The notes under the pieces are model-generated. The model had not been told where the DNA came from. It saw nothing but the letters and a program-made list of their open reading frames with translations, and ran no database searches. The position numbers and the translations under genes are program-made. DNA of 44,804 nucleotides, from sequence record NC_073052.1. One strand, 5' to 3'. Origin of the DNA: Escherichia phage JLBYU60. Of this stretch, positions 11,820 through 40,413 are shown piece by piece. Every line of letters begins with the position of its first letter. Within the stretch, counting starts at the first letter, position 1.

Positions 11820-11954
11820 TGAAGCGGGACAGGCGGGACGTCCCGTTTTGTCCCGCCTCTGTAAAACTGCATATCTACTCACTTCCACTGCATAAACTCA
11901 AAACGGGACAAGCGGGACGTCCCGTTTTGTCACGCCCTGTAAATATGCATACCT
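11819..11954. repeat. Tandem ~45-bp sub-repeats each containing the 12-bp palindrome CGGGACGTCCCG
   Basis: Two similar units (about 11824-11875 and 11896-11947); palindromes at 11834-11845 and 11913-11924; each unit also forms GGCGGGAC...GTCCCGCC inverted repeats. Confidence 0.7.
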
Positions 11955-12140
11955 ATGCAGATTTCGTGCATAAACCAAACGGGACAGAAAGCGGGACAAA
12001 CACGAGGCGGGACAAAACGGGACAGCACCCCGTCCCCGCCAGTGCTGCCGCGGTTTTCAGCCGATCGGGACAGCGGGACAGCACCCCAGTCTTTCAGACT
12101 AGACGGGGGTCAATGGCCCCCCTCGTCTGAGACTGAATAA
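11955..12140. repeat. Dispersed direct repeat, copy A (CGGGACA iterons plus long imperfect hairpin)
   Basis: About 186 bp, near-identical at both ends to 40016-40201 (shared ...tgcataaaccaaacgggacagaaagcgggacaaaca... and ...gggacagcgggacagcaccccagtctttcagactagacggggg...cccccctcgtctgagactgaataa); lies between chaperone and tape measure genes. Confidence 0.8.
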
Positions 12141-12203
12141 GGTTTGTTTTGAAATCGCTGATACAATATCCATCGGCAACTGCATAAAAAAGGGGACTGC
12201 ATA

Positions 12204-17616: not shown

Positions 17617-20600
17617 CGATTATCTACGACGTCACAGGGCATAAAGGCGGCGGCGGCAAACAGCACACCCCACAGGAGACGCCCGATAGCCTGCATTCGC
17701 TGGCTAAAATCCGCATCTTGCTTGCACTGGGCGAGGGTGAATTCGAAAGTATTACCAGCGCCAGCGAATTGCGGCAGCGAGTATATCTGGATGGAACGCC
17801 GATCCAGAACGCGGACTTGTCCGAAAACTTCCCCGGCGCGCGAGTGGAGTTCCGCCCAGGCACACAGCACCAGGACGTGATCCACGGATTTTCAGCGGTG
17901 GAAAGTGAGCAATCCGTCGGTGTAAAACTGGAAAACGGCACGCCGTGGGTGCGCCAGATTAATGACACCAGTTTGGACGCCGTGCGCATTCGCATCGGCA
18001 TTCCGGCCTTGTACACTAACGAAGATAATGGCGACCTGGTGGGCGGGCGCATCGACTATAAGATAGTTGTGTATACGGATAACGCCGACCCGCGTGAGTT
18101 CAGATTCGCCGCCGTTGGTAAAACAATGTCGCTGTATGAGCGCGACCACCGCATCGAATTACCGTCGAACGTGAATACCGGCTGGCGCGTGGAGGTGCAC
18201 CGCATAACGGCAGACTCCACATCGGCGAAAGTGGTTAATGATATCCGGGTGCAGTCCATCACTGAGATTATTGACGCCCGCCTGCGTTACCCGCTAACCG
18301 CGCTGTTGTTTGTGGAGTTCGACGCCAAAGCGTTCCAGAACATCCCGCGCGTGTCCATTAAGTGCAAAGGCCGTAAAGTTCTAATACCGAACAACTACGA
18401 CCCGATTAATCATACCTATTCCGGGGACTGGGACGGCACGTTTAAACGCGCATGGACGGATAACCCTGCGTGGCACTGGTACGATATTTGTATTACTGAA
18501 CGCTTCGGCCTCGGCCGGCGTATCAAACCGCAAATGTTAAACCGGTACGCGCTCTACCAGATTGCGCAGCGCTGCGATCAGTTGGTCAGCGACGGCAACG
18601 GTGGTCGAGAAATCCGCTTTAAGAATGATATGTACATCCAGTCGCAGACAGACGCCTGGACCGTGCTTAAGGATTTGGCTGCCATCTTCGCCGGAATGAC
18701 CTGGTGGGGTAACCAGATGTTGAATATTGTCAGTGACCAACCGGTCGCAGCAGTGTCGCACACTATCACCAACGCCTCGGTAATTGATGGGCGATTCGAC
18801 TACGCATCTGGTAGCCAGAAAACGCGCTATTCCACATTCGCGGTAGCATACGGCAATCCGAAAAACCACTATGAAGATGCTATCGCAACGGGGCAACGTG
18901 TCGAACTGGTACGCCGCCATAAGATTAACCGTCTTGATATTACGGCGATCGGCTGTACGCGTGAATCTGAAGCGCAACGCCGCGGGCACTGGGCGCTAAT
19001 TTCCAACCAGCTTGACCAGCAAGTTAGCTTTAAGGTTGGCATGGAGGGACTTTTCTTTATTCCGGGTAGCGTAGTCGCGATCGCCGATACAAACATTTCT
19101 GGCGGCTTCGAGACACGCGGCGGTCGCCTGTTGACAGATCCCGGCACGCGTACCGTGCTGAACACAGACAGCGAAATCACGTTCCGCCCAGGTGATAAAT
19201 TCCTGGTACGCACCGATAGCGGTAATGTGGAGACTCGCGAGATCGCCAGCGTCAACGGCAACAAGGTTACGCTAAAAACCGCACTGGACGCCGACCCTAT
19301 TCCGGACCAGCCGTTTTGCGTTGATGGCGACGATATCCAGTTGCAGAAGTTCCGCATCACCGATCTGGAATATGACGACTCTACGAGCACTTTCTCGGTG
19401 CGCGGGATTGAATACAACGATAGCAAATATGATGCCGTTGATAATGGCGCGCGCCTAGACCCGGGCATCTTTACGCAAGTGCCTGACGGCGTAATGAAGG
19501 GGCCGGAATCCGTGACCATCACCCCGTCGCAGATTTCATCGCAAGGACAGCTAATCACCAACGTGGATATTGTTTTCCCGCCGGTGAAGGACGCCGTGGT
19601 GTATGAAATCCAGTGGCGACGCACCAGCTTGCAGAATATGGAAATCCAGTGGGGTAACGACTGGGTGAATATCCCGCGCACGGCATCGAACGGTGCGCAC
19701 ATCCCTAACGTGTTCTCAGGTAACTACCAGGCACGCGTCCGCGCAATTGGCATGGGCGAAATCTCGTCACCGTGGGTGTCTTCCGCAATCACGCCAGTTG
19801 AAGGTCGCCTCGGCGGTCTTAACGCGCCTATCATCACCAACGCGATTTCGGGCCTCCACCAGATCTTGTGGAAGTGGAACCACAACAACGCCGCTACGGA
19901 TATTTCGTACACCGAGCTTGAAGTGCGCAAGACCGGTGAGACTGAATGGAAATTCCTTACCAACGTCCCATATCCGGGGGCGGAGTATGCGCAAACATCG
20001 CTGGAGTTCGGAATTTACCAGCAGTTGCGCGCCCGTGTAGCGGATAAAATCGGCAACCTGTCGGACTGGTCGGCCCCGTTTGAAGGGCAGGTGAGTGACA
20101 AAGTTGACGAGTACATGAAGGGGCTTGATGACGAGTTCTTGACTTCCGAGGATGGTAAACGCTTCCAGGAAGCAATCAACACGATCCCGCAGGGTATTTA
20201 CGAGGCGATGCTCACCGATGCGCAGCAATTGTTCAACGCCCGCGCCGAGTACAAGGGTATTTATGCGGAAATCTCGGTCGCGTATAACGTGGCGGCGGAC
20301 GCCCACAAGGCGGTCGCTCAACTGGAGACGTTGATCGGCACGCGACTTGATGACGCGGAAGCTGCGATCCACACGTTGCAGACCGCGCAGAGCACACAGG
20401 AACAAGCGTTCGCCCAGTATCAGCAAACTGTTGCCGCTAAGTTCGGGGAACAGGAAGCCGCCATCCAGCAGGTACAAACGGCAACCGCAGACGTGGCGGG
20501 AGCGCTGGCGGAATATAAGACCCAGGTCGCGACACAGTTTGGTCAGCAGTCCGCCGCTATCGAGCAGAAGATGACGTCCTCGTTTAACCATGCTGGTGGC

Positions 20601-22363: not shown

Positions 22364-24049
22364 ATGGCAGCGGGTACACTATCCGTAACGAATAACAGCA
22401 AGGCGGTTGTCGGGGTAGGCACGACGTTTACCGCGTTTAAAGCTGGCGACTTCTTAACGCTGGTGGTAGGACAAGTCCCCTACACCGTGGCAATCGCGTC
22501 CATTGAAAGCGCAACCGCGCTTACGCTGGTGCTGCCGTTCGACGGCCCAACGGCAACCGGCCTCGCGTGGGATGGCGTTAAGCGCGATACCATGTCGCTG
22601 GCAACGATGGGCGTTACCGTACAGGCTCAAAAAGCATTGCGCTTGATGATTGCAGATGAAAACAACTGGCGTGCAATCTTCGGCGACGCTGAAGAAATCA
22701 CGGTCACGCTGCCGAACGGGCAGGTGATGCAGGGTATGTCATGGGGCTACCTGTCGCAGTTGATGAAACAGATCGACCCAGTGGAAATGCGCGACCTGCA
22801 ACAACAAGCCGCCGCATCGGAAGCAGCCGCGCAAGGATTTCGCAATGAGGCAGAAGGCTTCAAAAACGACACCAACACCATCAAGACGCAGACCAACCAG
22901 ATTAAGACGGACACACAGGCTATCCACGACGCCACCAATACCATCAAGACGCAGACCAACCAGATTAAGACGGATACGCAGGCCATCAAGGACCAGACCA
23001 ACCAAATTAAGACGGATACCGGAGTTATTCGCGACCAGGCCAACACCGCGAAGACGGACGCGCAAGCCGCCCGCGATGCCGCGCAGGTATACAGGGACGA
23101 GGCCGAACAATTCAAAAATGAGGTTGACCCGTCTCAATACGCTAAGGTAAGTAACAACCTCACCGACCTCACCGACAAAACCGCGGCACGGCAGACTCTC
23201 AACGCAATCGGCGTCGGGGATTATGGCATCGGAGGCGGCGCACCTGGCGGAAGTTGGGACACAGCAGATGATAGCACCCTGATCGCTACAAACACAGGGT
23301 CCCCACTAGGTGACGTCTCCGTAGCGGGTGTGCATGTTAAGTTTGCGCAAAACTATGCTGTACAGTTCGCGGCGCGTCAAAGCCGATTTTTCTGGCGAAC
23401 TAAAGAGAATGGGGCGCTACAGAATTGGTGCGAAGCGGTGAAGCCGGGGGACTACGGACTAGGGATTGAAAACTCAGTCCCCCCGCCGAATACGCAGGCT
23501 TGCTTTTTCTCGCAGTCGATCGGAACACCGACTTGGGCACCTGCAAACGGCGCAGGATTTCAATCGGCCTACTCGCCCTCTCGTGTCGCACAGCTTATGG
23601 TCGGCGCGTTGCCAGCGCTCTACTATCGTTGGAACACCTCCGGCAACGCGCAAGTCTCCGCTTCGACGGCGCCGTGGTCACGGGTGCAAGATGCCGGTAC
23701 GTCTGACGCCCGTGTGAAGGATATTAAGGGAAATTTAAATGTGGAGGCGGCGCTGGATAACATCAACCGCCTTGAGTTTAAGTTATTCCGGTATACGTTT
23801 GACGAACCGGAGCGATCTACGCGACGCGGAATCATTGCACAGCAAGCGGCAACGGTTGACCGGGAATATGTGCACGACCACGAAGTTCCGGGGATGATGA
23901 CGTTAGACTTAAACCCGCTTGTCGCGGATTGCCTGGCGGCTATTAAAGCGTTAAGAGCGCGTGACGAGGCGAACAAGGCCGAGATTGCAGAACTGAAAGC
24001 TGCCGTAGCGGATTTGAAAGCCGCGGTCGCGGCGCTGACTAAAGCATAA
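22364..24049 (+). CDS. Side tail fibre with C-terminal intramolecular chaperone (peptidase S74-like) domain
   Basis: 561 aa; tandem 21-aa repeats (NTIKTQTNQIKTDTQAI...); C-terminal region DARVKDIKG...LEFKLFRYTFD...GIIAQQAATVD typical of auto-cleaving chaperone domains of phage fibres/endosialidases; terminator downstream. Confidence 0.75.
   Translation: MAAGTLSVTNNSKAVVGVGTTFTAFKAGDFLTLVVGQVPYTVAIASIESATALTLVLPFDGPTATGLAWDGVKRDTMSLATMGVTVQAQKALRLMIADENNWRAIFGDAEEITVTLPNGQVMQGMSWGYLSQLMKQIDPVEMRDLQQQAAASEAAAQGFRNEAEGFKNDTNTIKTQTNQIKTDTQAIHDATNTIKTQTNQIKTDTQAIKDQTNQIKTDTGVIRDQANTAKTDAQAARDAAQVYRDEAEQFKNEVDPSQYAKVSNNLTDLTDKTAARQTLNAIGVGDYGIGGGAPGGSWDTADDSTLIATNTGSPLGDVSVAGVHVKFAQNYAVQFAARQSRFFWRTKENGALQNWCEAVKPGDYGLGIENSVPPPNTQACFFSQSIGTPTWAPANGAGFQSAYSPSRVAQLMVGALPALYYRWNTSGNAQVSASTAPWSRVQDAGTSDARVKDIKGNLNVEAALDNINRLEFKLFRYTFDEPERSTRRGIIAQQAATVDREYVHDHEVPGMMTLDLNPLVADCLAAIKALRARDEANKAEIAELKAAVADLKAAVAALTKA
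22877..23020 (+). repeat. In-frame tandem 63-bp repeats within tail fibre gene
   Basis: About 2.3 copies of accatcaagacgcagaccaaccagattaagacgga... (21-aa unit TIKTQTNQIKTDTQAI). Confidence 0.8.
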
Positions 24050-33333: not shown

Positions 33334-34113
33334 TTAACGGCGGCGACGTTTACGTGGCGCTTCGTCTTCGTCGTCGTCCTCATCTTCGTCATCGCGTGGC
33401 TTACGCCGTTTGCGAGGTTTTTCATCTTCCTCATCGTCGTCGTCATCGCGGCGCTTGGATTTCTTGGACTTGCGCGGCTTGTCATCTTCATCATCGTCAT
33501 CACGACGTTTTGACTTTTTGGACTTGCGCGGTGCTTCGTCTTCGTCGTTGTCCAGGTCTTCATCGGAGCAAGACGACCCGCCACCTCCGAAGGCTTCGCC
33601 GTCTTCACGGAATCGCAGACCCAGCAAGCCAGCCCCGAGACCCTTGCCGTTGGTATTGTTCCACGCCCAAATATCCAGGGACACATTGCAATAACAACCG
33701 GAGTAGATCTCCTGGCCTTCGATCTCGTCGCCTTCTACGGTCAGACCTTGTTCCGTCTGCTTCTCGCCAAGTGACGTTTGAATGATCGGCTGTTTGAACG
33801 ATTTGGCGTTGATGTACAACATGCCTTCGAATTCTTCGGTTACTTCGTCGCGCTCGTCACCGTCGCGAACTGCGCATTCCTTAGAATCCTGGGCGTAGTG
33901 GCGGTCCATCCACTTATCGGCATTCTTCTCGGATTTCAGCTTATCGGTGAGCACTGCGCGCGCTGCCGCTTCCACTTTGTCCACCTGCGGATCTTCTTTA
34001 TCCAGAAGAATAACGGCACGGTATGCCGGTTTTTGACCATCCTGTTTAGGGGTATCACGTTCCCAAATTTTAAGGAAGCATACGCGCACATTTTTCAGGT
34101 TGACTTTAGCCAT
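33334..34113 (-). CDS. Putative ssDNA-binding protein (DUF2815/gp2.5-like) with charged C-terminal repeats
   Basis: 259 aa from ATG 34113 (MAKVNLKNVRV) with RBS GAGGAA; adjacent to a DUF2800-like exonuclease; C-terminus has tandem K/R-rich and D/E-rich blocks (DEAPRKSKKSKRRDDDDEDDKPRKSKKSKRRDDDDDEED...). Confidence 0.45.
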   Translation of the reverse strand: MAKVNLKNVRVCFLKIWERDTPKQDGQKPAYRAVILLDKEDPQVDKVEAAARAVLTDKLKSEKNADKWMDRHYAQDSKECAVRDGDERDEVTEEFEGMLYINAKSFKQPIIQTSLGEKQTEQGLTVEGDEIEGQEIYSGCYCNVSLDIWAWNNTNGKGLGAGLLGLRFREDGEAFGGGGSSCSDEDLDNDEDEAPRKSKKSKRRDDDDEDDKPRKSKKSKRRDDDDDEEDEKPRKRRKPRDDEDEDDDEDEAPRKRRRR

Positions 34114-36357: not shown

Positions 36358-36873
36358 TTAATCTTCCAGTTCGAAATAGGTTTCGACGATTTCTTTTAGC
36401 TCTGTGTGGAAGTCTTCGACGTCGTCATCTTCCAGCTTGGCGATTGATTTGATCTCGAACGATTCCAGCAGGTCGTCGAATTCGTCGTTCGCATCGTCGT
36501 CGTCACCACCGGCAATAATCGCGGCATACTGTTTGATCTCGTCGCGCATCTCTGCCAGCGGATCGGCATCTTTCTTGCCTTTGCCTTTTGCCGGTGCTTT
36601 TTTAGACTTAGCCGGTTTTTCATCTTCGGCATCGTCGTCGTCATCTTCTACGACTTCTTTTTTGGCCTTACCCTTCGCCGGTGCTTTTTTAGCTTTAGCC
36701 GGTTTTTCGTCTTCGGCGTCATCGTCGCCATCTTCGACAACTTCTTTTTTGGCCTTAGACGGCTTCTTGTCTTCCTGCTTACCAACGGCAGCGCCAACGG
36801 TTTCATAATGCTTTGCAATGGTCTCCAGTGCTACTACGCCGCGAGTGATCAGGTTTACGATTTGCTCAAACAT
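36358..36873 (-). CDS. Hypothetical protein with tandem lysine-rich/acidic repeats
   Basis: 171 aa from ATG 36873 (MFEQIVNL) with RBS GGAGATA; central duplicated ~31-aa unit (KPAKAKKAPAKGKAKKEVVEDDDDDAEDE) and acidic C-terminus; the six-frame ORF extension to 37053 lacks a credible start. Confidence 0.55.
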   Translation of the reverse strand: MFEQIVNLITRGVVALETIAKHYETVGAAVGKQEDKKPSKAKKEVVEDGDDDAEDEKPAKAKKAPAKGKAKKEVVEDDDDDAEDEKPAKSKKAPAKGKGKKDADPLAEMRDEIKQYAAIIAGGDDDDANDEFDDLLESFEIKSIAKLEDDDVEDFHTELKEIVETYFELED

Positions 36874-37614: not shown

Positions 37615-39879
37615 ATGAGCTTGATTAAATTCGCTGTAACAAAACCCGCTAAAAAAGGCGAAAAAGCCAGGGCGGAAAACTTCCAGATGACGACCGATGA
37701 GTTTTTCGAATTTATCAAAGATGCGAAAGAAATCTCCTCGGTGCATATCAACAAGACGGAAGATAAAGCCGAGTATGCGCGCCGCAAGCGTAAGGCCGAT
37801 GGCATCGTGGCGTATACCAGTGACGGATTGCGTCGTAAGACCAGTGCGGTGGACCGTTCGATCCTGTTCTTTGATATTGACCGCACCGACACCCGCACCC
37901 TGCGCCGCTGCCGCAAGGCGTTCATCGACGCGGGTCTGGAACACGTATTTCACACCACAACCGGCGACCGCCACCCGCTGAAAGGAGGCACGCGTTGCGC
38001 TCGTTTCCTGGTGCTCACCGATAAGCCTGTACCTGCTGAAGACCTGGGCCGCGTCCAGTATGCACTATTACACCAACTGGGCCTGTCAGATGTGGACTTC
38101 GATGATTGCACGAAAGACACAAACCGCCTTATGTACCTGCCTCACCAGCAATCGGTTGTTAAGTGTCACTACGGCAAACGTGCCCGCGTCCGTCGTCTGC
38201 TGCGCCTGGCGGATAAGCTGGGAGTGGAAAAAGAGGAAGTACGCCGCGAACTAACCCAGGGCGATGACGGCGTGGCGGACGGCATTCTGGATTGGTGCTT
38301 CCAGGCCGGATTCGAACCGCTGTCGTCCGGTCGTGGTTATGAAGTGCCATGCCCGAACGAACATCTGCATAGTGGCGAAGGGTCCACCGCTATCATGGTT
38401 AAGGATGGCGAGATCCGTTTCAAGTGTATGCACACCGGCAACGAGTGCTGTTCCGAACTGAACAGACACCAGCACCTGGCGCTACGTCTTATCGGGATCC
38501 CGGACCACCTGAACGTCGAACCGCACAACATGTCACGTAAGCAAATCGCCGCCATCCTTCCGGGACTGGACGACGAGGAGGTCGAATCGTGCTATGAACA
38601 TATCGTTGATGCGGTCGGTGACGGCGACGAGTACGGCGGATGTACGGACGCAGACCTGGACAACGAGCCGGTTGCACTGTTCAGTAAGCACGACCCGATC
38701 ATAGAAGGTCTGATTAACTTCAAATCGACCTGGTATATGGCTGGCGAGTCGAACATCGGTAAATCGTTCTACGTGCTGGGCCAAATGGGTGCGGTTGCCG
38801 CGGGGATTCCGTTCGGCGGCGCGAAGGTCGTCCAGTCCCATTGCTTCTATTTCGACGCGGAAGGTGGCGAAGCCTCTAACCAGCGCAAAGAAGCATTGCA
38901 GATTAAATATGAGCACGACCTGGACAAGCTGCACATTATCGATCTGCAATCACGCGGCTGGGATATCACCAGCAAATCCGGCTTGCGTGAAGTTATCAGC
39001 TTCATCAACCGCACCGCTAACGGCGAACCGGTTGGCCTGGTGGCGTTCGACTCACTCAACCAGACTGTTGCGTTGCGGTCCGCGGATGCTAAACCGTTCG
39101 ACGAGAACAACGCCAGCGATATGGGTGAAGTGGTCAAAGCGCTGAAGGCCATCGCGGAAAATACAGGTGGCAGTGCGGGCGTCATCCACCACCCGGCGAA
39201 GGGTGCAAACGGCAGCAGAACCCCCCGCGGGTCCGGCGCGCTGCATGGCGCTGTCGATTCTGCGTTCTTCCTGGAACAGCCGGACGACAACCAGCCAGGC
39301 CAATTGAACCTGTATCACGAAAAGGCACGTAACGGCATCAAGCAAGCGCCGCGTGGCTTCGTCCTGCTCAAGTGCAAGGTGAAGGTGGATCTCCGCAAGT
39401 CAGAAGCGTTCGAAGCCCACCAGTCCACCAGCACCGGGCCGGACTTCGGCGATGTGGTCGCCGGTTGGGACGTCAAGCCGATCGCATCAACGCCACGCGA
39501 CGAGACTCTTTACCTCGTACCGGTCGCCCTGGCACCGTTCGCCATTGAGCAGGCAAAGGCCGCTGGCAAGGCCGCAGTTAAGGAAGAGAACGCCGCAGGA
39601 CCGCGCAACGAAAAAGAGAAAGTGCTTTATGCAGCGCTGGAAAAACTGATGGAAGATAACCCGGACCATACCGGATTCAGCAAATCGGCAATTGTCCGCC
39701 AGGCTGGGCTTGCGAAAGGTGGCACATCGACGAAGGCAATCGACGATATGGTCGAGCGCGGCGTACTCGGTTTTTACACAGATCCGCACACCGGGGCCAT
39801 CTATGGGTCGTCGAATATCGTCATCAAAACGAATATACCCATCACGCTTTCGGCGACCGATGATGATTTAAAAGATTAA
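37615..39879 (+). CDS. Primase-helicase (replication initiation protein with RecA-like AAA_25-type ATPase domain)
   Basis: 754 aa; N-terminal region with LFFDIDRTD acidic motif and Cys/His zinc-binding segment CPNEHLHSGEG...FKCMHTGNEC; central Walker A GESNIGKS and Walker B-like LVAFDSLNQ. Confidence 0.7.
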   Translation: MSLIKFAVTKPAKKGEKARAENFQMTTDEFFEFIKDAKEISSVHINKTEDKAEYARRKRKADGIVAYTSDGLRRKTSAVDRSILFFDIDRTDTRTLRRCRKAFIDAGLEHVFHTTTGDRHPLKGGTRCARFLVLTDKPVPAEDLGRVQYALLHQLGLSDVDFDDCTKDTNRLMYLPHQQSVVKCHYGKRARVRRLLRLADKLGVEKEEVRRELTQGDDGVADGILDWCFQAGFEPLSSGRGYEVPCPNEHLHSGEGSTAIMVKDGEIRFKCMHTGNECCSELNRHQHLALRLIGIPDHLNVEPHNMSRKQIAAILPGLDDEEVESCYEHIVDAVGDGDEYGGCTDADLDNEPVALFSKHDPIIEGLINFKSTWYMAGESNIGKSFYVLGQMGAVAAGIPFGGAKVVQSHCFYFDAEGGEASNQRKEALQIKYEHDLDKLHIIDLQSRGWDITSKSGLREVISFINRTANGEPVGLVAFDSLNQTVALRSADAKPFDENNASDMGEVVKALKAIAENTGGSAGVIHHPAKGANGSRTPRGSGALHGAVDSAFFLEQPDDNQPGQLNLYHEKARNGIKQAPRGFVLLKCKVKVDLRKSEAFEAHQSTSTGPDFGDVVAGWDVKPIASTPRDETLYLVPVALAPFAIEQAKAAGKAAVKEENAAGPRNEKEKVLYAALEKLMEDNPDHTGFSKSAIVRQAGLAKGGTSTKAIDDMVERGVLGFYTDPHTGAIYGSSNIVIKTNIPITLSATDDDLKD

Positions 39880-39954
39880 ATTTTGCGCGCATTGGTTGCC
39901 GATATGGGAATTCCCATATCGCTAAAAGGTTAAATTTTGCGCGCATTGGTTGCC
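39876..39954. repeat. 25-bp perfect direct repeats flanking a 20-bp perfect palindrome
   Basis: TTAAATTTTGCGCGCATTGGTTGCC at 39876-39900 and 39930-39954; palindrome GATATGGGAATTCCCATATC at 39901-39920; first repeat overlaps the primase-helicase stop codon. Confidence 0.85.
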
Positions 39955-40015
39955 ATTTTGAGTGTTTTTATCAGGTCGTATTGGTTGCCGTGTAGTGTGA
40001 ATATAGTGAATAGTT

Positions 40016-40201
40016 ATGCAGTTTTACTGCATAAACCAAACGGGACAGAAAGCGGGACAAACAAGGGGCGGGACAAAGCGGGACAGCACCCCCGTCCCGC
40101 CCCGGATGGCGCGGCCTGGAGAGGAGCGGGACAGCGGGACAGCACCCCAGTCTTTCAGACTAGACGGGGGTCAGCGGCCCCCCTCGTCTGAGACTGAATA
40201 A
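40016..40201. repeat. Dispersed direct repeat, copy B (CGGGACA iterons plus long imperfect hairpin)
   Basis: Same orientation and length as copy A, 28,061 bp downstream; central ~45 bp diverged; located in the non-coding hub after the primase-helicase gene. Confidence 0.8.
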
Positions 40202-40350
40202 AATCCGAGGATTGCAAAATACACGGCAGCATGATGCGAAGGGCGGTCGTCGATGAACCAGGCAACCAATGCGGGTTGCATTATGCTGAGTGAAAAATGC
40301 AGTTTGCAGTCACAGCAGATAGCGATCAACTTTTTCATGCGCGTGATTAA

Positions 40351-40393
40351 TATTGGTTGCACCCTGCCTGGCGCCCTGCTATATTGGTTGCAC
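40351..40393 (+). promoter_or_regulatory. Putative sigma70-like promoter with duplicated TATTGGTTGCAC elements
   Basis: -35 TTGCAC (40357-40362), 17-bp spacer, -10 TATATT (40380-40385) preceded by TG-like extension; second TTGGTTGCACACCAA copy spans the predicted start site; gene starts at 40414. Confidence 0.5.
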
Positions 40394-40413
40394 ACCAACA
40401 AGAGGACTGAACG

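What the first reader, a model, noticed from the sequence alone, without database searches (positions are those of the whole stretch)
11955..12140. Two ~186-bp near-identical direct repeats 28 kb apart, built from CGGGACA iterons and a long hairpin
Copy A (11955-12140) and copy B (40016-40201) share about 35 bp at the 5' end and about 80 bp at the 3' end almost base for base, with a diverged centre. Each carries 5-7 CGGGACA/G iterons and ends in a 17-bp imperfect hairpin (TTCAGACTAGACGGGGG...CCCCCCTCGTCTGAGACTGAA) with no T-tract, so it is not an ordinary terminator. Copy A sits in a 385-bp non-coding gap between the tail chaperone and tape measure genes, where phages rarely carry anything. 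Copy B sits in the non-coding hub after the primase-helicase gene. Conservation of non-coding DNA at two distant loci implies a sequence-specific function: iteron-type origin, binding sites for a phage DNA-binding protein, or a structured small RNA present in two copies. Direct repeats this far apart could also allow recombinational deletion or rearrangement.
Basis: seen in the sequence. Interest (0 to 1): 0.75.

Follow-up and report, generated by a model that had tools for sequence, protein, structure and literature searches.

The report
Duplicated replication-origin-like iteron element
The two 195-bp repeats are real, non-coding and kept in every phage of this genus, and they most likely are binding-site arrays plus a priming hairpin for the phage's own primase-helicase, that is, a replication origin present in two copies, which has not been tested experimentally.

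Summary
In detail: 11946-12140 and 40007-40201 are 195-nt direct repeats (87% identical, ungapped), each with six CGGGACA motifs and a long hairpin. The window is a complete Dhillonvirus genome, and all 157 related phage records carry both copies. The Sodalis phage SO-1 GenBank record already annotates them as repeat 'region A/B', with no function shown. The coinciding 61-aa ORFs are chance, and no RNA family or covariation supports an RNA. The decisive evidence is comparative. CGGGACA arrays followed by a G/C-rich hairpin occur in about 11 unrelated phage lineages, and the only gene they share is a homologue of the window's primase-helicase (37615-39879). The array starts within about 40 nt of that gene's stop codon, on either strand. 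Closer relatives keep the layout but use a different motif (16-3 CGTGACA, FSL SP-031 GGGGAGA, VLCpiS11a TTGCGAG). The modelled protein is a RepB'-like AEP primase, a RepA-like helicase and a C-terminal winged helix. Best reading (about 0.55): copy B is an iteron-plus-hairpin origin, working like RSF1010 oriV or P4 ori. Copy A is a duplicate inside the tail operon (second origin or crr-like site). VLCpiS11a independently has a second copy in its head genes.

The parts
11820..12203 (.). Region A: 384-bp non-coding gap between the tail chaperone (frameshift product ends 11819) and the tape measure gene (starts 12204)
   Evidence: Equivalent to the annotated repeat_region 'region A' of Sodalis phage SO-1.
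11822..11857 (+). Palindrome made of motif copies: GCGGGACAGGCGGGAC|GTCCCGTTTTGTCCCGC (2 direct + 2 inverted CGGGAC)
   Evidence: the repeat finder D7; motif map; ssDNA fold -12.9 kcal/mol.
11901..11936 (+). Second copy of the motif palindrome (92% identical to 11822-11857)
   Evidence: the repeat finder D7; fold -11.2 kcal/mol.
11946..12140 (+). Copy A of the 195-nt element
   Evidence: the repeat finder D2; conserved in 157 phage records; alignment A2.
11940..11979 (.). AT-rich 5' box of copy A (32.5% GC) with TGCATA/TATGCA/TGCATA half-sites
   Evidence: Composition profile; sequence.
11980..12024 (+). Iterons 1-4 of copy A (CGGGACA at 11980, 11992, 12008, 12018)
   Evidence: positions invariant in 35 aligned copies.
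12066..12080 (+). Iterons 5-6 of copy A (CGGGACA at 12066, 12074)
12087..12135 (.). Long imperfect hairpin of copy A; stem and flanks invariant across all copies, loop variable
37615..39879 (+). Primase-helicase, proposed reader of the element: AEP primase (about aa 1-205), Cys/His cluster (246-287), AAA_25 helicase (357-531), winged helix (about 666-737)
   Evidence: Pfam AAA_25; PHROG replicative helicase-primase; AF2 N-terminus pLDDT 86.6 with Foldseek hits S-2L PrimPol 7e-6 and RepB' 2.5e-3; AF2 C-terminus winged-helix topology with winged-helix hits.
39880..40413 (.). Region B: 534-bp non-coding hub after the primase-helicase gene
   Evidence: Equivalent to SO-1 'region B'.
40007..40201 (+). 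Copy B of the 195-nt element
   Evidence: the repeat finder D2; alignment A2.
40000..40039 (.). AT-rich 5' box of copy B (27.5% GC, lowest in the region), containing GTGAATAGTTATGCAG...CTGCATAA
   Evidence: the box is shared with Salmonella phage FSL SP-031.
40041..40085 (+). Iterons 1-4 of copy B (CGGGACA at 40041, 40053, 40069, 40079)
40065..40103 (.). Inner hairpin GGGGCGGGAC...GTCCCGCCCC, pairing a direct with an inverted motif copy
   Evidence: -15.1 kcal/mol as ssDNA.
40127..40141 (+). Iterons 5-6 of copy B
40148..40196 (.). Long hairpin of copy B (same invariant core as copy A)

Best explanation
Each element is a cis-acting DNA site for the phage's own replication protein, the 754-aa primase-helicase. 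It would work as follows. The C-terminal winged helix binds the CGGGACA repeats as duplex DNA, concentrating and oligomerising the protein. The RepA-like helicase core opens the adjacent 40-bp AT-rich box. The invariant long hairpin then extrudes in single-stranded DNA and serves as the start signal for the N-terminal RepB'-like primase. Copy B, immediately after the gene, is the ancestral origin. Copy A is a complete duplicate placed in the tail operon and acts either as a second origin or as a distant helper site, like crr of phage P4. Shown here: the repeats, their conservation, the gene-array linkage across lineages, the motif switching, and the predicted folds. Inferred: binding, melting, priming, and any role in replication.
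For: (1) A motif-arrangement scan found CGGGACA arrays plus a G/C-run hairpin plus inverted GTCCCG copies in about 33 non-Dhillonvirus viral contigs, GC 57-73%. (2) Of all window ORFs, only the primase-helicase has homologues in those loci. It is the only gene family shared by 17 of 27 array loci, and the first motif lies -23 to +37 nt from its stop codon in 10 of the 11 loci with an array there. (3) N-terminal domains differ (Prim-Pol, DnaB-N, unassigned) and upstream neighbours differ; the AAA_25 core plus the C-terminal segment is the constant part. (4) The motif changes coherently with lineage while position and architecture are kept: 16-3 CGTGACA, 15 of 24 copies in the held 48 kb in 367 nt, p=2e-26; FSL SP-031 GGGGAGA 7/9, p=3e-14; VLCpiS11a TTGCGAG 6/14, p=2e-8. 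(5) Motif orientation relative to the gene varies between lineages, as expected for duplex recognition. (6) The C-terminal domain models as a winged helix, and all top matches are winged-helix DNA binders. The N-terminus models as an AEP primase closest to S-2L PrimPol and to RepB' bound to its hairpin. (7) The layout is AT-rich box, then iterons, then GC hairpins. (8) About 45 nt of hairpin stem and flanks are invariant in 35 copies at both loci while the loop varies, as for a sequence-specific priming signal such as ssiA (PMC8567376). (9) Experimentally established analogues exist: the pRN1 origin stem-loop just downstream of its primase-helicase-winged-helix gene, the P4 alpha winged helix on ori repeats, and RSF1010 iterons plus ssi hairpins (PMC4234260). 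(10) A second copy arose independently in VLCpiS11a, and the A and B copies evolve in concert.
Against: There is no experimental datum for any Dhillonvirus. GC skew follows gene orientation and its minimum is at the divergent hub near 37.1 kb, not at copy B. Iteron spacing is irregular (12, 16, 10, 48, 8 nt) rather than helically phased. The AT-rich box is only about 40 bp. The winged-helix fold matches are individually weak (best E = 5e-3). The same CGGGACA motif is used by helicases only about 25% identical, while a 44% relative uses GGGGAGA, so the specificity determinant is not pinned down. Both copies, and both VLCpiS11a copies, are co-oriented with the surrounding genes and start at or near a stop codon, which would also suit a transcript-level role. 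Kagunavirus and Jerseyvirus relatives have no room for an array after the gene. Some strong arrays have no helicase gene within 3.5 kb.
Confidence: 0.55

Rival explanations
1. Transcription-control DNA sites. The arrays would be operators or activator sites for a phage regulator, and the hairpin a leader, terminator or attenuator. Together they would set expression at the boundary between the replication gene and the next operon (copy B) and lower or time tape-measure and distal tail gene expression (copy A).
For: Both copies sit between co-oriented genes. In weak-homologue loci the repeats flank a TATATA box and a long hairpin just upstream of the next gene's ribosome-binding site. Region B is full of promoter-like ATTGGTTGC boxes, including TTGCAC-17-TATATT at 40357-40385. 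Both VLCpiS11a copies start at a stop codon. An HTH/sigma-region-4-like protein is encoded just upstream.
Against: No regulator family co-occurs with the arrays; only the helicase does. Downstream genes are unrelated between lineages. The sigma-70 scan finds no promoter in either element. The hairpin lacks a conserved U-tract.
Confidence: 0.2
2. A structured RNA present in two copies, either cis-acting (antitermination like HK022 put or lambda nut, or an mRNA stabiliser or processing site) or a small RNA, transcribed with the flanking + strand genes.
For: Both copies are on the strand of the flanking genes. Both fold into the same three hairpins, with z-scores of -3.3 and -3.5. Some G-C to G-U changes are tolerated only on the + strand. 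Length is held at 184-187 nt.
Against: 0 of 32 consensus pairs show compensatory change and the covariation term is -0.06. There is no Rfam family at gathering or permissive thresholds. The minus strand folds nearly as well. In other lineages the motif lies on the strand opposite the helicase gene, so it cannot be the same RNA motif. Stems are invariant rather than covarying. No dedicated promoter or terminator was found.
Confidence: 0.15
3. A selfish or neutral duplication: a recombination scar or miniature mobile element with no function of its own at locus A.
For: Two copies in direct orientation; concerted evolution indicates exchange between them; FSL SP-031 and 16-3 manage with a single locus.
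Against: Copy A is at the same position in all 157 records. About 45 nt are invariant at both loci. There are no terminal inverted repeats or target duplications, no copies elsewhere in the genome and none in 5,426 E. coli genomes. A second copy arose independently in VLCpiS11a.
Confidence: 0.04
4. Two paralogous genes for a 61-aa protein (the finding's coordinates equal two ATG ORFs).
For: The ORFs 11955-12140 and 40016-40201 exist in the window, with the same length and frame. Several GenBank records call a hypothetical protein here.
Against: In 36 copies the start is ATT in 10 of 17 A copies, most B copies have stops at codon 3 or 8, and several copies are frameshifted. The centre differs without amino-acid conservation.
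Confidence: 0.01

Closest known systems
RSF1010 (IncQ) oriV with RepC, RepA and RepB'
   Same: The ingredients match: short direct repeats bound by an initiator, a RepA-type hexameric helicase (the window protein hits Pfam AAA_25), and an AEP primase that starts at a specific hairpin. The window's N-terminal model matches the RepB' catalytic domain bound to ssiA DNA (PMC8567376, PMC4234260).
   Different: Here the three activities are in one polypeptide. Iterons are 7 bp with irregular spacing, not 20-bp repeats. Each element has one long near-palindromic hairpin rather than ssiA and ssiB on opposite strands. The element is present twice, 28 kb apart. No sequence similarity to oriV was tested or seen.
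Phage P4 alpha protein with ori and crr
   Same: A single protein combines primase, helicase and a C-terminal winged-helix origin-binding domain that binds short repeats (PMC4234260). That there are two separate repeat-bearing cis regions on one genome, ori and crr, rests on my own knowledge of the P4 literature; it was not retrieved here.
   Different: The P4 primase is Toprim type and its helicase is superfamily 3. Here the primase is AEP and the helicase AAA_25/RepA-like. The P4 repeat sequence is different. The distance is 28 kb, and copy A lies inside the tail operon.
pRN1 ORF904 / Bordetella phage BIP-1 stem-loop origin
   Same: The origin lies immediately downstream of the gene for a Prim-Pol + helicase + C-terminal winged-helix protein and includes a required long stem-loop. 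The same layout is noted in a phage (PMC4234260).
   Different: pRN1 has no iterons and uses an SF3 helicase. The element here has six to ten iterons, and its helicase is RepA-like.
Sodalis phage SO-1 'region A' / 'region B' (GenBank GQ502199)
   Same: These are the same elements at the same two positions, annotated as repeat regions with mutual similarity.
   Different: It is only an annotation.

Membership tests
Iteron-type replication origin | Several copies of a short motif clustered in a non-coding region | tested here: met
   Six CGGGACA per element, 15 of 18 genomic copies in the two loci; binomial p=5e-8 for region B.
Iteron-type replication origin | Linked to a cognate initiator gene whose product has a DNA-binding domain | tested here: met
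   The array abuts the stop codon of homologous primase-helicase genes in about 11 lineages. The C-terminus models as a winged helix. Binding itself was not tested.
Iteron-type replication origin | Motif and initiator co-vary between relatives | tested here: met
   CGGGACA, CGTGACA, GGGGAGA and TTGCGAG at the same position in related phages.
Iteron-type replication origin | Adjacent AT-rich unwinding element | tested here: inconclusive
   A 40-bp box of 27.5% / 32.5% GC lies at the 5' edge of each element. This is short for an unwinding element. 16-3 has a longer AT-rich stretch.
Iteron-type replication origin | Supports initiation of replication in vivo or in vitro | not testable with these tools
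   Needs marker-frequency analysis, 2D gels or a plasmid ori assay.
P4 alpha / ori-crr system | One protein with primase, helicase and a winged-helix origin-binding domain | tested here: met
   AEP primase fold, AAA_25, winged-helix topology; the domain classes differ from those of P4.
P4 alpha / ori-crr system | Toprim primase and SF3 helicase homologous to alpha | tested here: not met
   Pfam gives AAA_25 only, the N-terminus is AEP, and no PDB sequence hit was found.
P4 alpha / ori-crr system | Two repeat-bearing cis regions on one genome | tested here: met
   Copies A and B. Functional interdependence was not tested.
RSF1010 oriV | Two ssi hairpins on opposite strands recognised by RepB' | tested here: inconclusive
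   There is one near-palindromic hairpin per element, equally stable on both strands. The primase fold resembles RepB'. Recognition was not tested.
Rfam RNA family / structured RNA | Match to a curated covariance model, or covariation supporting a structure | tested here: not met
   0 gathering hits, only chance hits of about 20 bits, 0 compensatory pairs.
Intrinsic terminator | GC-rich hairpin directly followed by a U-tract | tested here: not met
   The scan finds none on the + strand in either element. Copy B is followed by TAAAATCCGAGG.
Protein-coding gene | Open reading frame maintained in relatives | tested here: not met
   Start codon lost, in-frame stops and frameshifts in most of 36 copies.
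Host-derived repeat (REP/ERIC-like) or mobile element | Copies in host genomes or at variable positions | tested here: not met
   No match in 5,426 complete E. coli genomes; fixed positions in 157 phage records.

The most novel reading that the evidence does not exclude
The second copy is not just a spare origin. A primase-helicase-bound iteron/hairpin module placed inside the late structural operon (tail genes in Dhillonvirus, head genes in VLCpiS11a) would physically couple replication initiation to late-gene expression or to genome processing. It might act as a replication-dependent switch or roadblock for transcription of the tape measure and distal tail genes, or pair with copy B by looping or handcuffing to time or limit initiation. 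This design would have evolved at least twice.
Probability: 0.1. Interest if true: 0.75.

Novelty: new variant of a known kind. Interest (0 to 1): 0.5.

Why it matters
Dhillonviruses are common E. coli phages, including members of the BASEL collection, and I found no report of a mapped replication origin for them. If the reading is right, it gives two exact candidate origins and a candidate initiator domain. Origin mapping, plasmid-interference assays and binding-specificity swaps (CGGGACA versus CGTGACA versus GGGGAGA) then become directly testable. It also points to a widespread, apparently undescribed module in phages of Proteobacteria, including the classic Rhizobium phage 16-3: a fused AEP-primase/RepA-helicase/winged-helix protein with its iteron-plus-hairpin site at its own stop codon. 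It would also be a natural system for studying how initiator-iteron specificity drifts, and why some lytic phages keep a second copy inside their structural genes.

Tried and rejected
**Coding ORF:** rejected.

**Known RNA family or tRNA:** none found.

**RNA covariation:** none, but the stems are invariant, so this test is uninformative rather than negative.

**Host origin:** no match in E. coli genomes.

**General feature of this tail module:** no. Serratia phage Smarc4 has a 95-bp gap, and FSL SP-031, 590B and VLCpiS11a have no element before the tape measure gene.

**GC skew as an origin locator:** confounded by gene orientation.

**Small HTH protein as binder:** no conserved family next to the arrays.

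**First 7-mer array scan:** it missed GGGGAGA because of my low-complexity filter; corrected by reading the sequence.

**Homologue search with the C-terminal domain alone:** found one fragment; the full-length query worked.

**Dating the duplication:** two tape-measure-based scans recovered only close relatives, so the tape-measure region of the ~65% tier contig (...050407) was not obtained and the age of copy A is unresolved.

**Kagunavirus 590B and Jerseyvirus f2SE:** the helicase gene is followed within 14-17 nt by an opposite-strand gene and no array was seen.

**Literature:** searches for the motif, Dhillonvirus intergenic repeats, SO-1 and a 16-3 origin found no functional study.

Full report
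**1. What is there.**
The window is a complete Dhillonvirus genome (an HK578/SO-1-like E. coli siphophage) that starts at the small terminase gene. The repeat finder reports one long-range family: 11946-12140 and 40007-40201, 195 nt, 87% identical without gaps, in direct orientation 28,061 bp apart (alignment).

Each copy has, in order:
- a 40-bp AT-rich box (32.5% and 27.5% GC in a genome of about 55% GC) containing TATGCA/TGCATA half-sites;
- four CGGGACA motifs;
- an inner hairpin that pairs a direct with an inverted motif copy;
- a diverged centre;
- two more CGGGACA motifs;
- a long imperfect hairpin.

CGGGACA occurs 18 times in the window against 5.9 expected, and 15 of the 18 lie in the two loci. 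Region A also holds two 36-nt palindromes built from the same motif (D7). The stated coordinates coincide exactly with two 61-aa ORFs of the mechanical ORF list.

**2. It is conserved, non-coding and already noticed.**
All 157 related phage records carry the element, about two places per record. The GenBank record of Sodalis phage SO-1 annotates 'region A' and 'region B' as mutually similar repeat regions, with a note cut off at 'possible ...'. I found no paper that analyses them.

In 36 aligned copies the putative ORF is not maintained. The start codon is ATT in 10 of 17 A copies, most B copies have stop codons at codon 3 or 8, and several copies are frameshifted. Element length, however, is held at 184-187 nt. 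About 45 nt of the long hairpin's stem and flanks are invariant at both loci while its loop varies freely.

**3. RNA tests.**
Rfam gives nothing at gathering thresholds and only chance matches of about 20 bits to miRNA-precursor models in permissive mode. No tRNA or tmRNA was found. Both copies fold well on the + strand (z -3.3, -3.5), but the minus strand folds nearly as well. The consensus fold of 35 copies has 32 pairs, none with a compensatory change, and a covariation term of -0.06. The only robust helix never varies, so RNA structure is neither supported nor excluded by this test alone. No sigma-70-like promoter or intrinsic terminator is found on the + strand within either element.

**4. 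The key result: the motif array is widespread and tied to one gene.**
A scan of viral contigs for CGGGACA-N4-5-CGGGACA-N7-11-CGGGAC returned 62 loci. About 33 of these are not Dhillonvirus (GC 57-73%, contigs of 4-125 kb). By my own rough estimate only a few would be expected by chance; this was not computed. Most of them show the same architecture: four to nine direct CGGGACA, a hairpin with G and C runs, and inverted GTCCCG copies.

Searching every window ORF against these loci, only the primase-helicase (37615-39879) has homologues, at 24-28% identity. Clustering all ORFs within 3.5 kb of strong arrays gives a single family shared by 17 of 27 loci, and that family is this helicase. Most of the other loci are cut off at the array. 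In 10 of the 11 loci that have an array after the gene, the first motif lies between -23 and +37 nt from the gene's stop codon; in the window it is +162. N-terminal domains differ (Prim-Pol, DnaB-N, unassigned), upstream and downstream neighbours are unrelated, and no small HTH protein travels with the arrays. The constant partner is the AAA_25 helicase core plus a C-terminal segment.

**5. DNA site or RNA motif?**
Relative to the helicase gene, CGGGACA lies mainly on the gene strand in five lineages, mainly on the opposite strand in three, and is mixed in two. Conserved position with free orientation is what a duplex-DNA protein site shows. It is not what a motif in the gene's transcript shows.

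**6. The motif co-varies with the protein.**
Closer relatives keep the position and architecture but use other 7-mers.

| Phage | Helicase identity | Motif | Copies in the post-helicase gap | Loci in genome |
|---|---|---|---|---|
| Rhizobium phage 16-3 (p101) | 68% to a CGGGACA-using contig (L133) | CGTGACA | 15 of 24 in the 48 kb held (27 genome-wide), in 367 nt, p=2e-26 | one |
| Salmonella phage FSL SP-031 | 44% to the window | GGGGAGA | 7 of 9, p=3e-14 | one |
| Klebsiella phage VLCpiS11a | 49% to the window | TTGCGAG | 6 of 14, p=2e-8 | two |

FSL SP-031 also shares the 5' box GTGAATAGTTATGCAG with the window's copy B. More distant homologues show lineage-specific short repeats, a TATATA box and a long hairpin just after the stop codon. 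A coherent change of every copy in a locus between related proteins is the expected trace of a co-evolving protein-DNA pair.

**7. The protein.**
Pfam detects only AAA_25 (aa 357-531), and PHROGs calls the protein a replicative helicase-primase.

With an alignment of 35 homologues, AlphaFold models the N-terminal 330 aa confidently (pLDDT 86.6). Foldseek places this region among archaeo-eukaryotic primases: cyanophage S-2L PrimPol (E=7e-6), the RSF1010 RepB' catalytic domain bound to its initiator hairpin (E=2.5e-3, probability 0.99), Prim-PolC and LigD. Invariant residues fit this class: a DxD pair, an H/T/D/H block, and a Cys/His cluster.

The C-terminal 165 aa model less well overall (pLDDT 72), but residues 77-148 of that segment form a helix-strand-helix-helix-strand-wing-strand unit at pLDDT 78-90. 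All the best matches are winged-helix DNA binders (MarR family, linker histone, LexA, a plasmid initiator, ORC), none individually strong. The protein therefore unites, in one chain, the three activities that RSF1010 splits between RepB', RepA and RepC.

**8. Mechanism proposed.**
By analogy with established systems, the steps would be:
- the winged helix binds the iterons;
- the helicase opens the AT-rich box;
- the invariant hairpin forms in single-stranded DNA and directs the primase.

The analogues are RSF1010 iterons plus ssiA/ssiB hairpins, the P4 alpha winged helix on ori repeats, and the pRN1 (and Bordetella phage BIP-1) stem-loop just downstream of a primase-helicase-winged-helix gene that is required for replication (PMC4234260, PMC8567376). 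These steps are inferred; none is shown here.

**9. Copy A.**
FSL SP-031 and 16-3 have one locus, so the helicase-adjacent site is the general state and copy A is a later duplication. It is fixed in all Dhillonvirus records examined.

VLCpiS11a independently has a second homologous copy: 96 nt, 75% identity, direct, 30.6 kb away. It starts at the stop codon of the head-morphogenesis gene. Some CGGGACA arrays in other contigs also lie in packaging or structural regions.

Within 15 genomes, A and B of the same genome are more alike than A and B of different genomes (0.902 versus 0.879, permutation p=0.003). This indicates exchange between the copies or co-selection by one reader. Recurrent acquisition and strict conservation argue that the second site is useful. 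Whether it is a second origin or a crr-like helper is open.

**10. Weak points.**
There is no experiment. GC skew is dominated by gene orientation and reaches its minimum at the 37.1-kb divergent hub. Iteron spacing is irregular and the AT-rich box is short. The winged-helix assignment is at fold-class level only. CGGGACA is shared by helicases only 25% identical while a 44% relative differs, so the specificity determinant is unresolved. Kagunavirus and Jerseyvirus relatives lack room for an array. The co-orientation of both copies with neighbouring genes keeps a transcript-level or transcription-control role alive. I put the origin/initiator-site reading at about 0.55, a transcription-control site at 0.2, a structured RNA at 0.15, and a neutral duplication or a gene at 0.05 together.

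**11. Novelty and verdict.**
The repeats themselves were already annotated in 2009. The kind of system (iterons and a hairpin next to the initiator gene) is known. Three things appear to be new in the sources I could search: the link to a fused AEP-primase/RepA-helicase/winged-helix protein across many phage lineages, the motif series CGGGACA / CGTGACA / GGGGAGA / TTGCGAG, and the independent appearance of a second copy inside structural operons. I class it as a new variant of a known kind, of moderate interest, and directly testable.

Noticed in passing
window 39891, 39945, 39980, 40262(-), 40352, 40383; also 6228(-), 22339(-), 25280, 26933(-), 26950(-), 29907(-), 37077, 40917(-): ATTGGTTGC occurs 14 times exactly, mostly in intergenic DNA and co-oriented with the next gene; six copies flank copy B. 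At 40352 it supplies TTGCAC-17-TATATT, a good sigma-70-like promoter. VLCpiS11a has a related 52-nt repeat GTTGGTTGCAAT...TATTATAGT (L183 18984 and 34795). This is probably a promoter box conserved across genera, separate from the iterons.
   Followed up: partly
window 39869-39954: A 32-nt direct repeat TAAAAGRTTAAATTTTGCGCGCATTGGTTGCC (39869 and 39923) brackets the perfect palindrome GATATGGGAATTCCCATATC, just after the primase-helicase stop codon and upstream of copy B.
   Followed up: no
window 39996-40013; L164 13781-13813: TGTGAATAT and GTGAATAG at the 5' edge of copy B resemble the complement of a DnaA box (TGTGNATAA; from my own knowledge). The box GTGAATAGTTAT is kept twice in FSL SP-031 even though its iteron differs. 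It could be a host-factor site in the origin.
   Followed up: partly
GenBank MG065648.1, OQ221563.1: Records named 'Campylobacter phage A144' (99.5% identical over the element) and 'Acinetobacter phage NJ01' (89%) are Dhillonvirus-like; their host labels look doubtful.
   Followed up: no
L021 (NC_073086.1, phage L-h 1M) 19984-20203: The record has N bases inside the hairpin, and its gene table appears shifted by about 785 nt relative to where the element and tape measure start should be.
   Followed up: no
Edwardsiella phage eiAU (PMC3025963, Table 1): There are gaps of about 875 bp after the helicase/primase ORF44 and about 870 bp between the gp16-like ORF22 and the tape measure ORF21. These are the equivalents of regions B and A, so eiAU may be a further lineage with two loci. 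The sequence was not fetched.
   Followed up: no
L142 7066-7205; L138 10033-10165; L150/L151 two arrays about 1 kb apart: These strong CGGGACA arrays have no helicase gene within 3.5 kb. In L142 the array lies between terminase-like and portal-like ORFs. They may be counterparts of copy A in other phage lineages.
   Followed up: partly
window 33350-33564, 36464-36737, 22866-23033: Coding repeats: GTCGTC-rich (acidic on the minus strand) repeats in two minus-strand genes, and three 63-nt repeats in the 22364-24049 tail fibre-like gene (D1, D3, D4, D6).
   Followed up: no
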